A DNA stretch of 64,000 bases, taken from assembly GCA_963825135.1 (NCBI GenBank), contig CAWGRW010000009.1, forward strand, positions 736,001 to 800,000. Direction: 5' to 3'. Each line of letters begins with the position of its first letter. Position 1 is the first letter of the stretch. The translations under genes were made by a program, and so were the position numbers. Of the stretch, positions 61,722 through 64,000 are shown one piece after another. The DNA comes from an uncultured bacterium. Its GTDB lineage: Bacteria > Desulfobacterota_D > UBA1144 > Nemesobacterales > UBA2774. The notes under the pieces are model-generated. The model saw nothing but the letters and a program-made list of their open reading frames with translations, ran no database searches and was not told the DNA's origin.

Positions 61722-63089
61722 CTACTTCAAATTGCTTCCGTCGGCACAGAGCTGGGTGAGGATGCTGCAGGGTTTTTTGCTCCGGTTGCCGCACTCGTCC
61801 TTCGCCGCCTTTACAGCCTCGTCCATGTCGGCATAATAGCCCCATCCGAGAGCGCCGTCCTCACTCCTGGCTACGGCGCCGCAGTCTGTAAACGAAATCC
61901 TCATCTGACAGTTAGGCCCGTACTTCACGCACTCATCGACCGCCGCCTTTTCCGCCTGAACCCGCGTGGGATAGTTCCATGCCGTGCCGTATTGCCCGTT
62001 GTCGGCCGTGGCTATCGCCGCCCATACGTTCACCCGCTTTGTGCTTCCGTCCGAGCATAACTCTATGAACGAAGAGCATACGTCGTTGGTATACTTGTGA
62101 CATTCGCTGACCGCGTTGTTTCTCGCCAGATCGACGGTCGAGTTCGTCGCCCACCCGAAGGCCCCGTCCGGGGCCGTGGCATAAACAGCGCAGGTGTTAA
62201 ACGAGACTTTAATCTCACAGCCCGTATTGAACTGGCTGCACCTTTCGACGGCGTCTTTCTCGGCCGCCTGTTTCGAGGGCATGTTCGTCGAAAATCCATA
62301 TCCGCCGCTCGGCGAAACAGCTATAGATCCCCAGTTCCCTTCGTTGTCGTATGGACCGGGTGGGGACGGAGTATATACGGGGGGCCGGTAATCTTTGTCA
62401 TCGCCGATTATCTTATGGGGTTGATCGTTCTTCTCTCCGTCCTTACCCCCACCGCCGAAAATCAGATAACCGGCCAGTCCTAAAACCACTACTACAGCAA
62501 TTAAACCCCCGAGTTTCTTTTTATCGCCGAGGAAAGACCTTCCGCCGGAATAATCCTTCTTTTCGAGCGGCCTTATGGTTTCCATACGCTGATCCGGTCC
62601 CTGATCGGCTTTTGCCGAACCGGATTGGGACGCCCCGCTTATCCCGGCGGCATTATCATCGGCTTCGGACTCGACGCGCGCTCCCATTCTCGAAAGCAGG
62701 AGCTTGATAGTCGACAGCAGCTGTGCAAGGTGTTTTTCGAGCGGCGGGGTTAGAGCGTCGAGCCAATGCGGAGCGCTTATAAAGTATTCGAGGGATTTAT
62801 TGGGATCGACGTCCTCCACCCTGAACGGAATGACCGGTATGCCTTTGCTTACCGCACGCTCGACTTCCCTGATTATTTGCTGGGACTCATTGGCGTTGGA
62901 CGAGAACACGAGGACCATCACCCGGCTTGAGCTTATGGCGTCGATAATCGCCTCGCCCCACTGCGTGCCGGGCACTATGTCCCTGGGGGCAATCCAGCAT
63001 CTGACGCCGCCTTTTTCCAGAGTCGCGCATACTGCGTCCGCAACGGGTTTGTCTTTCGCCGAGTGACTGATAAAAACATCGTGAGCCAT
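61722..63089 (-). CDS. TIR domain - transmembrane helix - two DUF4189-like Cys-rich repeats
   Basis: TIR: DVFISHS, WIAPRDIVPG, REVERA (Glu75). TM aa ~193-211 preceded by KKK. Two six-Cys repeats. Confidence 0.88.
   Translation of the reverse strand: MAHDVFISHSAKDKPVADAVCATLEKGGVRCWIAPRDIVPGTQWGEAIIDAISSSRVMVLVFSSNANESQQIIREVERAVSKGIPVIPFRVEDVDPNKSLEYFISAPHWLDALTPPLEKHLAQLLSTIKLLLSRMGARVESEADDNAAGISGASQSGSAKADQGPDQRMETIRPLEKKDYSGGRSFLGDKKKLGGLIAVVVVLGLAGYLIFGGGGKDGEKNDQPHKIIGDDKDYRPPVYTPSPPGPYDNEGNWGSIAVSPSGGYGFSTNMPSKQAAEKDAVERCSQFNTGCEIKVSFNTCAVYATAPDGAFGWATNSTVDLARNNAVSECHKYTNDVCSSFIELCSDGSTKRVNVWAAIATADNGQYGTAWNYPTRVQAEKAAVDECVKYGPNCQMRISFTDCGAVARSEDGALGWGYYADMDEAVKAAKDECGNRSKKPCSILTQLCADGSNLK
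61737..62333 (-). repeat. Tandem ~103-aa protein repeat (aa 253-348 and 356-451)
   Basis: Cys at 284/291/300/330/338/345 and 387/394/403/433/441/448, each offset by exactly 103; shared W..IA, AEK.AV..C, DGA.GW and LC.DGS. Confidence 0.88.
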
Positions 63090-63143
63090 GTATTTTTCCC
63101 CTCTCCTCCAGACGAAATTCTTGAGGATTATAGCTGTGATTGA

Positions 63144-64000
63144 CTACCCAGGCAACACCAAACGCTTGGATTGAAAAACTATTCTCCAGTCCAGGTTTTC
63201 AGAGGTCATAATCTCCGCCGTATTTTCAGCGATGAAGCCGAGAAGCCGGTAGGAGGGAACGAAGTCCGCCTTATCGAGCTCGTTCCTCAGATTCTCCAGA
63301 TGTGCGCTCATGGCATCCGACCTCTTCGCTATGAGCTCGAATTCCCCCTGTGTCCTGATGCTATAGAATGCCGCTCCCAATGCGGGGAAAATAGCGGCGC
63401 AGATCGTGAGCCAGTCCTTGTGAAAATACAGATGGGAAAGGCATGCTATAACCGTGAGCACGAATAGCGCGGAGCCGATGATATGCAGTGTGTCATGGAT
63501 CCTGTGGAAACGGGGAGAGTTGCGCTTGTGATAATTAATCTGCCCGGTGATCTCCTGCTCCGACAAAAAGGCCCTGTATGATCCGAGGTATCCGGCGTCT
63601 ATCTTCGCTTCCACCAATCCGGCCTCCCGAACCACCGCCCTGAAGTGCCAGTTCACCCAGGAGTTCCTGGGGTCTCCGTACGTATCGTGGGCCGGCACCC
63701 TGAACGCCGGCGTCGTCAGACCGAGCGGTGCAAGAAATCTGAGCTGTCTCAGCTGTTCGGACAGGAGCCTGTAATCGATCCACCTCTCGTGCCATCGTTT
63801 TATATTCCCGATGACGGTGATCATTATTATCAGCAGGATCAGAGCGAGCTCGCATGATATCCACAGGTCCTCAAATCTCGTTACAGTCGGAAGCAGCGCG
63901 AAAAAGACCGCCAGCCCGGCCAGCAGGTAGTTAGCCAGAAAGGAGCTCCTGTAAATATTTGAATAGTAATTCGCGAGCTTGTCGGCCCAGGTATAATGCG
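63144..64000 (-). CDS. Membrane protein with two SLATT/DUF4231-like 2-TM modules (5' part outside the window)
   Basis: Frame is open from the window edge: HYTWADKLANYYSNIYRSS, TM, TM, RWHERWIDYRLLSEQLR ... QINYH, TM, TM, ENLDW. Confidence 0.72.
   Translation of the reverse strand, partial: HYTWADKLANYYSNIYRSSFLANYLLAGLAVFFALLPTVTRFEDLWISCELALILLIIMITVIGNIKRWHERWIDYRLLSEQLRQLRFLAPLGLTTPAFRVPAHDTYGDPRNSWVNWHFRAVVREAGLVEAKIDAGYLGSYRAFLSEQEITGQINYHKRNSPRFHRIHDTLHIIGSALFVLTVIACLSHLYFHKDWLTICAAIFPALGAAFYSIRTQGEFELIAKRSDAMSAHLENLRNELDKADFVPSYRLLGFIAENTAEIMTSENLDWRIVFQSKRLVLPG

What the first reader, a model, noticed from the sequence alone, without database searches (positions are those of the whole stretch)
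61722..63089. Toll-like receptor-like architecture: cytoplasmic TIR, single TM, periplasmic tandem six-Cys repeats
Seen: TIR (aa 1-~135), a low-complexity linker, KKK then a hydrophobic helix (positive-inside, so N-in/C-out), a Pro-rich stalk and two repeats with six Cys in identical register. Established: DUF4189 is a ~100-aa six-Cys extracytoplasmic domain of unclear function, and TIR NADase activity generally needs oligomerisation. Inference: ligand-induced clustering of the repeats switches on the TIR, like a TLR with inverted topology. The C-terminal module may be an exchangeable sensor.
Basis: partly seen in the sequence, partly recalled or inferred. Interest (0 to 1): 0.7.

Follow-up and report, generated by a model that had tools for sequence, protein, structure and literature searches.

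The report
Membrane TIR receptor with pore partners
This gene encodes a membrane protein with an NAD-cleaving-type TIR domain inside the cell and two disulfide-rich domains outside, and it sits in a conserved three-gene unit with two nucleotide-sensing pore-type membrane proteins, so it looks like a surface-sensing variant of the bacterial Thoeris immune signalling systems.

Summary
ORF 61722-63089 (-) encodes TIR_2 (aa 5-124), a disordered linker, one TM helix (~193-213), a Pro-rich stalk and two DUF4189 domains with six Cys each at an exact 103-residue offset.

The C-terminal module is exchangeable. At least 7787 homologues share this TIR (59-100% identity in the best 120). Of those 120, 104 have a TM after the TIR, and only the 21 Dadabacteria orthologues carry DUF4189.

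The gene is the last of a syntenic block. The two upstream genes (one cut by the window end, one beyond it) encode SLOG-2xSLATT membrane proteins. The SLOG fold is a YpsA/DprA/LOG match from a model with pLDDT 94.6.

Relatives of this SLOG-SLATT protein have TIR genes of many architectures within 7 kb in 24 of 74 loci from other phyla.

Best reading (0.5): a Thoeris type VII-like system in which a periplasm-facing TIR receptor makes an NAD-derived signal that gates SLOG-SLATT pores.

Activation by ectodomain clustering, the ligand and the signal are all untested.

This is a new variant of a known kind. The scan has noted other TIR-TM-X receptors on other DNA.

The parts
61722..63089 (-). Gene for the TIR - TM - 2x DUF4189 protein (455 aa, P0001)
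62685..63089 (-). Cytoplasmic TIR domain, aa 1-135. Has Box1-like DVFISHS, Box2-type RDIVPG (aa 36-41) and invariant E75 in helix C.
   Evidence: Pfam TIR_2 81.6 bits. E75, R36 and D37 invariant in 78 of 78 aligned homologues. Foldseek TMt 0.79-0.85 to the TRR-2 TIR and 0.80 to AbTir.
62520..62684 (-). Disordered low-complexity linker, aa 136-190
   Evidence: pLDDT below 50 at 140-190. 27% mean identity among 19 orthologues.
62445..62519 (-). KKK plus single transmembrane helix, aa 191-215
   Evidence: KD 2.54 at 193-211. Model helix at 197-211.
62340..62444 (-). Pro-rich periplasmic stalk, aa 216-250
   Evidence: Sequence. pLDDT below 50 at 213-234. 24% identity among orthologues.
62034..62339 (-). 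DUF4189 domain 1, aa 251-352, six Cys
   Evidence: Two beta-beta-alpha-beta lobes in the model.
61725..62033 (-). DUF4189 domain 2, aa 353-455, six Cys
   Evidence: phmmer hit to Rv1813c (7nhz), E 7.4e-5.
63127..63155 (-). Conserved promoter-like element (TTGCCT-17-TATAAT) in the 54-nt spacer before the TIR gene. Its first hexamer overlaps the end of the upstream gene.
   Evidence: Consensus scan (not more sites than in shuffles). The non-coding part TCAATCACAGCTATAATCC is identical in 7 of 8 orthologous loci and has 3 changes in the other genus.
63144..64000 (-). 3' part of the SLOG-2xSLATT gene 'B'. The full gene is L002 3144-4928 (594 aa) and runs past the window end. The paralogue 'A' (L002 4935-6788, 617 aa) lies wholly beyond the window. 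L002 coordinate = window coordinate minus 60000.
   Evidence: NCBIfam SLATT_1 58.7 bits (cut-off 41) and Pfam DUF4231 29.8 bits (cut-off 24.7). Four TM segments in two pairs. N-terminal 310 aa fold as SLOG.

Best explanation
The gene is the sensor and signal-generator of a three-gene TIR signalling unit fixed in the chromosome of a Candidatus Dadabacteria lineage.

Proposed mechanism:
1. The protein is a type-II membrane protein, with an enzyme-type TIR in the cytoplasm and two DUF4189 domains in the periplasm.
2. An event in the envelope is read by the DUF4189 pair. This could be binding of a foreign protein that enters the periplasm, by analogy with the DUF4189 protein that binds the T4SS tip protein VirB5.
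3. That event changes the packing of the membrane-tethered TIR domains.
4. The TIR domains then convert NAD+ into an ADP-ribose-derived signal of the cADPR type.
5. The signal binds the YpsA-like SLOG domain of SLOG-SLATT protein B.
6. Protein B, probably together with its degenerate paralogue A, opens a SLATT pore or channel in the inner membrane and causes depolarisation, growth arrest or death.

What is shown: domain identities, topology logic, gene linkage, and exchange of the ectodomain.

What is inferred: enzymatic activity, the nature of the signal, SLOG as its receptor, pore opening, and the trigger.
For: 1. TIR, TM and 2x DUF4189 are confirmed.

2. E75 is invariant in 78 of 78 homologues and lies in helix C after strand C. 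From recalled TIR motifs, this is where the catalytic Glu sits.

3. Linkage within the lineage.
- The A-B-TIR order is kept in 6 of 8 fetched orthologous loci; the other 2 are cut by contig ends.
- TIR-DUF4189 and protein B occur in the same 12 of 33 family genomes. This is probably only one or two evolutionary events.
- In G000 the only two SLOG-SLATT genes and the only DUF4189 protein are these neighbours.

4. The N-terminal 310 aa of B fold with pLDDT 94.6 and pTM 0.90. Foldseek matches them to YpsA (E 2.3e-7), DprA, ShosA, TM1055, the Moco carrier protein and LOG, which together mark the SLOG fold. B keeps the family's near-invariant GHR, SPLAEGAD and GGT motifs.

5. The B family is large: 1596 representatives at E <= 1e-30.
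- In 80 loci from other genomes, 33 TIR ORFs lie within 7 kb, in 29 loci. That is 24 of the 74 non-Dadabacteria loci.
- 19 of the 33 TIR ORFs are the immediate neighbour.
- 25 of the 28 non-Dadabacteria TIR ORFs were submitted to Pfam, and all 25 passed TIR_2.
- Partner architectures vary: SIR2-TIR, TIR-TM-TPR, TIR-TM-FGE-sulfatase, TIR-TM-PD40, TIR-CHASE2, kinase-TIR and others.

6. Literature (passages read).
- TIR plus SLATT effector is Thoeris type VII, and its signal is canonical cADPR.
- SLOG binds 3'cADPR in type I Thoeris.
- YpsA-clade SLOG domains sense cADPR variants, and SLATT is predicted to be an ADPr-derivative-gated membrane effector.
- A DUF4189 protein is periplasmic and binds VirB5.
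Against: 1. No activity, ligand or phenotype was tested.

2. The locus is syntenic between housekeeping genes in two genera (RNR, DUF924, SnoaL and DUF3568 on one side, DUF3108 on the other). It is not in a mobile defence island.

3. The reverse link is weak. Of 78 metagenome loci of the closest TIR homologues, only 7 have a SLOG-SLATT-family hit, 3 of them weak. Among the 35 loci of at least 6 kb, 5 have a hit. Most TIR-TM-X proteins therefore work without this partner.

4. PADLOC has no hit for A or B and only generic TIR hits. NCBIfam Thoeris and retron TIR models score far below their cut-offs.

5. The ectodomain is not hypervariable. It shows 65-68% identity among orthologues, similar to the neighbouring DUF3108 gene.

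6. A conserved promoter-like element before the TIR gene suggests it may be transcribed apart from A and B.

7. The assignment of E75 as the catalytic Glu rests on a recalled motif. The PDB sequence alignments stop at residue 68-81.
Confidence: 0.5

Rival explanations
1. The TIR is itself the effector. Ectodomain-triggered clustering makes it deplete NAD+, as in TIR effectors of CBASS, Pycsar or SPARTA. The SLOG-SLATT genes are an independent or merely additive module.
For: Most close TIR-TM-X homologues lack a SLOG-SLATT neighbour: 30 of 35 loci of at least 6 kb have none. No other dominant conserved neighbour was found. A conserved promoter-like element separates the TIR gene from A and B.
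Against: Strict adjacency and co-occurrence hold in Dadabacteria. TIR genes of many kinds are enriched next to this SLOG-SLATT family, with 19 of 33 as immediate neighbours. SLOG is a known receptor of TIR products.
Confidence: 0.15
2. The unit uses the same wiring but is not an immune system. It would be a physiological envelope or cell-cell signalling pathway in which the SLOG-SLATT proteins act as ligand-gated channels. The comparison here is with ADPR-gated TRPM2, whose N-terminal domain is SLOG-type (recalled).
For: The locus is fixed and syntenic between housekeeping genes in two genera, with no mobile-element genes seen. The ectodomain is under ordinary rather than diversifying divergence. 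PADLOC gives no hits for A or B.
Against: Elsewhere the SLOG-SLATT family sits with typical conflict-system partners: SIR2-TIR, nSTAND1-TPR, NB-ARC-TIR and TrkA_N/RyR proteins. The TIR+SLATT pairs tested experimentally defend against phage.
Confidence: 0.15
3. The DUF4189 pair is not the trigger sensor. It would be a periplasmic binder or shield, like XAC2611 which blocks T4SS attack by binding VirB5, or an anchoring module. The TIR would then be activated by a cytoplasmic cue.
For: The only functionally studied periplasmic DUF4189 protein acts by binding and blocking, not by signalling. Thoeris TIRs described so far respond to infection from inside the cell.
Against: Thousands of homologues keep the same TIR-TM scaffold while swapping ectodomains, which is the pattern of receptors. 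No VirB4-type T4SS ATPase was found in G000 with PF03135 (genome 94% complete), so self-protection from its own T4SS is unlikely.
Confidence: 0.1
4. The TIR is a non-enzymatic scaffold, as in animal TLRs, and signals by TIR-TIR recruitment of another TIR protein.
For: The clade carries the TLR/IL-1R-type Box 2 motif RDxxPG (aa 36-41; R36 and D37 invariant, P40 and G41 at least 90%). A survey says this motif is typically absent from prokaryotic TIRs (passages). The best sequence hits in the PDB are mostly metazoan receptor or adaptor TIRs. G000 has a second TIR_2 gene on contig C7.
Against: E75 is invariant. The second TIR gene is unlinked and sits among housekeeping genes. The linked partners are SLOG-SLATT proteins, not TIR adaptors.
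Confidence: 0.05

Closest known systems
Thoeris type VII (TIR protein ThsB plus SLATT effector ThsH; bioRxiv 10.64898/2025.12.03.692087, passages read)
   Same: A TIR gene lies next to a SLATT-domain membrane effector gene. The logic is that a TIR-made ADPR-derived signal activates a membrane-breaching SLATT protein.
   Different: Here the TIR is a type-II membrane protein with a periplasmic 2x DUF4189 module. The effectors are about 600 aa, with an N-terminal YpsA-like SLOG domain and two SLATT units. There are two paralogous effectors, one with a degenerate SLOG. The locus is chromosomally fixed. The preprint passages I read do not mention a SLOG domain in ThsH or a membrane-anchored ThsB; its supplements were closed.
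Thoeris type I and type III (SLOG-containing effectors)
   Same: A SLOG domain serves as the receptor of the TIR product (3'cADPR in type I).
   Different: The output domain is SLATT, not SIR2. The SLOG is of the YpsA/DprA-like kind by fold only. NCBIfam Thoeris type III ThcB4 scores 17.4 bits against a cut-off of 220.
Receptor-like ParA systems (PCTM and the third subtype of TIR-ParA; bioRxiv 10.64898/2026.10.19.760177, passages)
   Same: A constant N-terminal cytoplasmic domain, a single TM and a variable extracellular sensor. An upstream effector gene can be SLATT. The authors propose sensing of periplasmic perturbation.
   Different: The cytoplasmic module there is a ParA NTPase switch. 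Here it is the TIR itself, with no NTPase.
DUF4189 proteins XAC2611 (Xanthomonas citri) and Rv1813c (PDB 7nhz)
   Same: The same domain family (Pfam; phmmer E 7.4e-5 to 7nhz). Both are extracytoplasmic and disulfide-stabilised, with two beta-beta-alpha-beta lobes.
   Different: Those are small soluble single-domain proteins with signal peptides. Here two copies are tethered to a TM and a cytoplasmic TIR. TIR+DUF4189 was found only in the Dadabacteria orthologues.
Animal Toll-like receptors
   Same: A single-pass membrane protein with a ligand-binding outside and a TIR inside. A Box 2 RDxxPG motif is present.
   Different: Type II rather than type I topology. No LRR ectodomain. A conserved Glu at the expected catalytic position. 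No TIR adaptors are linked, and the output is SLOG-SLATT.

Membership tests
TIR domain (Pfam TIR_2, PF13676) | Profile match above the curated cut-off, and a TIR fold | tested here: met
   81.6 bits against a cut-off of 28. Foldseek probability 1.00, TMt 0.79-0.85 to solved TIR domains.
Enzymatic (NAD+-cleaving) TIRs | Catalytic Glu in helix C | tested here: inconclusive
   E75 is invariant in 78 of 78 sequences and lies in the helix after strand C. Its equivalence to the catalytic Glu rests on a recalled motif; no residue-level alignment to a solved enzyme reached it.
Enzymatic (NAD+-cleaving) TIRs | NADase or cyclase activity | not testable with these tools
   Needs a biochemical assay.
DUF4189 (PF13827) | Profile match, and six conserved Cys per domain | tested here: met
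   Two domains at 77.3 and 75.7 bits against a cut-off of 25. Six Cys each, in identical register.
DUF4189 (PF13827) | Extracytoplasmic location with disulfides | tested here: inconclusive
   Predicted from the single TM, the flank charges and the N-terminal TIR. VKOR and DsbA-like genes are present. No experimental topology.
SLATT (upstream proteins B and A) | Profile match above the cut-off, and paired TM helices | tested here: met
   B: NCBIfam SLATT_1 58.7 bits against 41, and two TM pairs. A is below the cut-off (23.8 bits) but is homologous to B over its whole length (own HMM, E 7e-73).
SLOG superfamily (N-terminal domain of B) | Rossmann-like SLOG fold, with Gly-rich and GGT-type motifs | tested here: met
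   Model pLDDT 94.6. Foldseek hits YpsA (E 2.3e-7), DprA, LOG and TM1055. The motifs are conserved in the family. No Pfam, NCBIfam or PDB sequence hit.
Thoeris type VII | TIR gene adjacent to a SLATT effector gene | tested here: met
Thoeris type VII | Infection-dependent cADPR production and phage defence | not testable with these tools
   Needs expression, LC-MS and plaque assays.
Thoeris (any type) by curated models | Match to PADLOC or NCBIfam Thoeris models at family level | tested here: not met
   There are only weak generic TIR hits: PADLOC ThsB 15-17 bits, and NCBIfam ThcB4 17.4 against 220. PADLOC gives nothing for A or B. PADLOC v2.0.0 predates type VII.
Toll-like receptors | LRR ectodomain, and type I topology with a C-terminal TIR | tested here: not met
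   The ectodomain is DUF4189 and the TIR is N-terminal.

The most novel reading that the evidence does not exclude
This is an 'outside-in' bacterial TIR immune receptor. A large and apparently undescribed clade of type-II membrane TIR proteins reads events in the periplasm through swappable ectodomains; here the event would be a foreign protein such as a phage tail tip or T4SS pilus tip, caught by DUF4189. The receptor would trigger TIR signalling before or without cytoplasmic invasion. In this lineage the signal would pass to SLOG-gated SLATT pores. The clade's TLR-type Box 2 (RDxxPG) motif and its best sequence matches to metazoan receptor TIRs would make it a candidate bacterial relative of the receptor TIRs of animals.
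Probability: 0.25. Interest if true: 0.85.

Novelty: new variant of a known kind. Interest (0 to 1): 0.62.

Why it matters
In the passages I read, Thoeris TIRs are triggered by phage infection, and no membrane-anchored or periplasm-facing TIR is mentioned.

A TIR that is hard-wired to a periplasmic binding module, and linked to a SLOG-SLATT output, would give a testable case of trans-membrane activation of a TIR enzyme in bacteria.

It would also suggest a physiological role for a family of thousands of TIR-TM-X proteins. It would give DUF4189 a second functional context. Finally, it offers a simple three-gene system for asking how clustering controls TIR catalysis and how SLOG domains gate membrane pores.

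Tried and rejected
- Complex prediction (TIR domain against the SLOG domain of B) was not available.
- Sequence and profile searches of the PDB with protein B and alignment A1 gave nothing meaningful. Only the fold search identified SLOG.
- A profile search of the PDB with A2 aligned only to residue 63-70 of the TIR, so it did not reach E75.
- Clustering the neighbours of 78 TIR-clade metagenome loci found no dominant partner. The largest cluster consisted of antisense ORFs over the TIR gene, an artefact of my ORF picker.
- The ectodomain search (aa 251-455, near lengths) found only orthologues or fragments of them, 18 hits. Shorter DUF4189 proteins were outside the length range and were not searched.
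- The look-up of sequencing runs listed no RNA holder, and no reads were laid.
- The consensus promoter/terminator scan found no more promoter-like sites than in shuffles (5 against 4.2 +/- 2.2). Only the conservation seen makes one site notable.
- Burroughs et al. 2015 (NAR), which defined SLOG and SLATT, could not be opened by DOI or by the PMC id I recalled. What I say about it is recalled.
- Literature searches found no description of bacterial TIR-TM-ectodomain receptors or of TIR+DUF4189. The library lacks most subscription journals, and bioRxiv supplements were closed, so Table S1 of the Thoeris preprint may list such operons.
- dN/dS was not computed, because divergence is likely saturated.
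Full report
**1. Observation**

The minus-strand ORF 61722-63089 is open and encodes 455 aa. Pfam finds TIR_2 at aa 5-124 (E 8.4e-23, 81.6 bits against a cut-off of 28). It also finds DUF4189 twice (E 1.5e-40).

A simple hydropathy scan finds one hydrophobic segment at aa 193-211, after KKK at 190-192. The N-flank is more basic than the C-flank.

The twelve ectodomain Cys fall into two sets of six, at an exact offset of 103 residues. The two repeats align with score 200, against 29.7 +/- 6.0 for 300 shuffles.

An AlphaFold2 model built on 78 homologues has mean pLDDT 81.9.
- The TIR and both DUF4189 domains are above 90.
- The linker (140-190) and stalk (213-234) are below 50.
- A helix lies at 197-211.
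- Each DUF4189 domain shows two beta-beta-alpha-beta lobes. This is the arrangement described for Rv1813c (passages) and predicted for XAC2611 (passages).
- Foldseek matches the TIR to solved TIR domains: TRR-2 at TMt 0.79-0.85 and AbTir at 0.80.

**2. Topology**

Several points place the repeats outside the cytoplasm.
- The TIR begins at residue 5 and there is no signal peptide.
- The ectodomain keeps all 12 Cys in all 21 orthologues.
- The two studied DUF4189 proteins are periplasmic or secreted and disulfide-bonded.
- The genome encodes a VKOR homologue (106 bits) and two DsbA-like Thioredoxin_4 proteins. DsbB was not found.

N-in/C-out is therefore the only sensible reading, but it has not been tested experimentally.

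**3. The TIR clade and the swappable ectodomain**

Searching with aa 1-135 gave 7787 proteins at E <= 1e-5 among the 8000 candidates scored. In the best 120, TIR identity is 48-100% (59-100% in all but three, P0015, P0028 and P0033... see listing).
- 104 of the 120 have a hydrophobic segment starting at residue 140-290.
- 21 carry two DUF4189 domains. These are all the Dadabacteria orthologues.
- The other 99 carry other C-termini, and 83 of those 99 have the TM.

By the precomputed Pfam accessions, the other C-termini include:
- FGE-sulfatase (5 proteins);
- TPR (5 proteins);
- PF13828, PF13365, PF12799, PF13229/PF05048, PF00656, PF14326, PF00498 and PF08238. I know the names of these accessions only from memory.
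- Many have no Pfam match after the TM.

P0027 shares 85% TIR identity with this protein but has an unrelated repeated ectodomain. P0056 has a different 12-Cys ectodomain.

Among 19 orthologues, mean identity by region is as follows:

| Region | Mean identity |
|---|---|
| TIR | 92% |
| Linker | 27% |
| TM | 51% |
| Stalk | 24% |
| DUF4189 domain 1 | 65% |
| DUF4189 domain 2 | 68% |

E75, R74, Q71, S69, N67, S63, R36, D37, H108 and W109 are invariant in 78 of 78 aligned homologues. E75 lies in the helix after strand C. From the recalled plant and bacterial TIR motif (strand C, then S-x-W-C-x-x-E), this is the catalytic position. No residue-level alignment to a solved enzyme confirmed this.

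The clade also has RDIVPG at aa 36-41, which is the Box 2 motif RDxxPG. A survey of TIR domains says this motif marks TLR, IL-1R, TIRAP and MyD88 TIRs and is typically absent from prokaryotic TIRs (passages).

**4.

The window ends inside the next gene, so I fetched the DNA beyond it. The window is G000:C9:736001-800000, and L002 coordinates equal window coordinates minus 60000.

Two genes lie on the same strand upstream.
- Gene B is L002 3144-4928 (594 aa), 54 nt upstream of the TIR gene.
- Gene A is L002 4935-6788 (617 aa), 6 nt upstream of B.

What B and A are:
- B matches NCBIfam SLATT_1 (58.7 bits against 41) and Pfam DUF4231. It has four TM segments in two pairs.
- A is a diverged paralogue (own HMM, E 7e-73).
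- No library named the first ~300 residues of either protein.
- An AlphaFold2 model of B aa 1-310, built on 81 sequences, reached pLDDT 94.6 and pTM 0.90.
- Foldseek matched that model to YpsA (E 2.3e-7, TMt 0.63), DprA, ShosA, TM1055, the Moco carrier protein and LOG. This is the SLOG superfamily.
- B keeps the family's near-invariant residues. A differs at 16 of 27 of them, including G23, H24, R25, G80, D82, D159 and the GG of GGT. A's SLOG is probably not a normal ligand binder.

**5. Linkage**

Within the GTDB family:
- Full-length TIR-DUF4189 orthologues occur in 12 of 33 genomes. That is 8 of 9 in the other genomes of the same genus plus G000 itself, and 3 of 3 in a second genus.
- Protein B occurs in the same 12 genomes.
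- These genomes are kin, so this is probably only one or two independent events.

In 8 fetched orthologous loci:
- The order A-B-TIR is kept in 6. The other 2 are cut by contig ends.
- DUF3108 lies on one side in all 8.
- DUF3568-SnoaL lies on the other side in 6, with DUF924 and RNR beyond them where the fetched stretch and the genome hold them.
- This is a fixed chromosomal position, not a mobile island.

In G000 these are the only two SLOG-SLATT genes and the only DUF4189 protein. A second TIR_2 gene exists on contig C7 among housekeeping genes, and there is a third sub-threshold hit.

**6. Is the TIR / SLOG-SLATT link general?**

The B family is large: 7756 representatives at E <= 1e-3 and 1596 at E <= 1e-30, mostly full length.

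I examined 80 genome loci of this family. Six are Dadabacteria-like. The rest come from Acidobacteriota, Planctomycetota, Gemmatimonadota, Proteobacteria, Chloroflexota and others.
- An HMM of this TIR clade found 33 TIR ORFs in 29 loci, which is 24 of the 74 non-Dadabacteria loci.
- 19 of the 33 are the immediate neighbour of the SLOG-SLATT gene, by my crude ORF calls.
- I sent 25 of the 28 non-Dadabacteria TIR ORFs to Pfam, leaving out L041_3-1379, L043 and L060. All 25 passed TIR_2.
- Their architectures are SIR2_2-TIR (4), TIR-TM-TPR, TIR-TM-FGE-sulfatase, TIR-TM-PD40/WD40, TIR-CHASE2, kinase-TIR, DUF4062-TIR, TIR-PNP, TIR-NB-ARC and TIR-only forms.
- Other recurrent neighbours are a TrkA_N/RyR-domain protein family (17 non-Dadabacteria loci) and nSTAND1-TPR proteins (7 loci).
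- The loci are not independent samples, and I have no formal background rate.

The reverse link is weak.
- Of 78 metagenome loci of the closest TIR homologues, 7 have a hit to the B-family HMM. Four are strong, one of which is a Dadabacteria orthologue.
- Among the 35 loci of at least 6 kb, 5 have a hit.

In short, SLOG-SLATT proteins often have a TIR partner, but most TIR-TM-X receptors do not have this particular partner.

**7. Mechanism**

The published background is as follows (passages read).
- TIR plus SLATT effector is Thoeris type VII, which signals with canonical cADPR.
- SLOG is the 3'cADPR receptor in type I Thoeris.
- YpsA-clade SLOG domains are linked to sensing of cADPR variants, and SLATT is predicted to be an ADPr-derivative-regulated membrane effector.
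- A DUF4189 protein, XAC2611, is periplasmic and binds the T4SS tip protein VirB5.

I therefore read the locus as follows. A periplasm-facing TIR receptor makes an NAD-derived signal on the inner face of the membrane. That signal is read by the SLOG domain of B and gates a SLATT pore, possibly an A/B heteromer.

What is shown: the domains, the topology logic, the linkage and the ectodomain exchange. What is inferred: catalysis, the signal, SLOG as receptor, pore opening, the trigger, and whether the role is immune.

G000 has no VirB4-type ATPase detectable with PF03135 (genome 94% complete). An XAC2611-like role in protection from the cell's own T4SS is therefore unlikely.

**8. Against this reading, and the alternatives**

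These points count against the best reading.
- The locus is not in a defence island.
- The ectodomain is not hypervariable.
- PADLOC and the NCBIfam Thoeris models do not recognise the system.
- Most clade members lack this partner.
- A promoter-like TTGCCT-17-TATAAT lies in the 54-nt spacer before the TIR gene. Its non-coding part is identical in 7 of 8 orthologous loci and nearly so in the other genus. The TIR gene may therefore be expressed on its own.

The rivals are:
- the TIR as a stand-alone NAD-depleting effector;
- the same wiring used for physiological signalling;
- DUF4189 as a shield or anchor rather than a sensor;
- a TLR-like non-enzymatic scaffold.

**9. Comparison and novelty**

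The closest known system is Thoeris type VII. The closest known architecture logic is the receptor-like ParA systems, which have a type-II single TM, a variable extracellular sensor and sometimes a SLATT effector.

I found no description of bacterial TIR-TM-ectodomain receptors, of TIR+DUF4189, or of a SLOG-2xSLATT effector paired with a membrane TIR. The library is incomplete, the 2015 paper that defined SLOG and SLATT could not be opened, and preprint supplements were closed.

Earlier notes of this scan describe other TIR-TM-X receptors on other DNA, one of them with a SLATT-like partner. The class has therefore been seen before in this scan. The DUF4189 version and its double SLOG-SLATT partner have not.

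Verdict: a real and well-defined feature, and a new variant of a known kind. Interest is 0.62.

Noticed in passing
window 63127-63155 (-); L015-L022 equivalents: A promoter-like TTGCCT-17-TATAAT lies in the spacer between SLOG-SLATT gene B and the TIR gene. It is conserved far better than the rest of the spacer across two genera, which suggests separate transcription of the TIR gene.
   Followed up: partly
L002 4935-6788 (-) (beyond the window end): Paralogue A of the SLOG-SLATT pair differs from the family at 16 of 27 near-invariant SLOG residues, including GHR, G80/D82 and GG of GGT. It is a likely non-binding or regulatory subunit. Tandem A+B pairs were seen almost only in Dadabacteria loci.
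   Followed up: partly
window 62968-62985 (-), aa 36-41 of P0001: The TIR clade carries the TLR/IL-1R-type Box 2 motif RDxxPG, together with an invariant Glu (E75). Its best PDB sequence hits are mostly metazoan receptor or adaptor TIRs (Hydra TRR-2, TIR-STING, TIRAP, TLR1/6). TIR identity of 59-77% persists across proteins with unrelated ectodomains and phyla, and this is unexplained.
   Followed up: partly
L039, L042, L045, L047, L048 and others (17 non-Dadabacteria loci), directly downstream of the SLOG-SLATT gene: A protein family of about 670-950 aa with TrkA_N (NAD-binding) and/or RyR domains recurs next to SLOG-SLATT genes. It may be another component of NAD-centred systems.
   Followed up: partly
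L030, L031, L033, L065: SIR2_2-TIR fusion genes lie directly after SLOG-SLATT genes and are followed by nSTAND1-TPR giants (1200-1500 aa). This looks like a distinct three-gene conflict system.
   Followed up: no
L017 11787-11999 (G009) and L016 2937-3558 (G008): tblastn splits SLOG-SLATT gene A at about aa 71 in G009, and splits DUF924 in G008. These are possible frameshifts or assembly errors.
   Followed up: no
G000:C7:5277-6011 (+): A second, short soluble TIR_2 gene (57.4 bits) sits on an 11-kb contig beside leucyl-tRNA synthetase-like and thiamine-phosphate synthase-like ORFs. No SLATT gene is nearby.
   Followed up: partly
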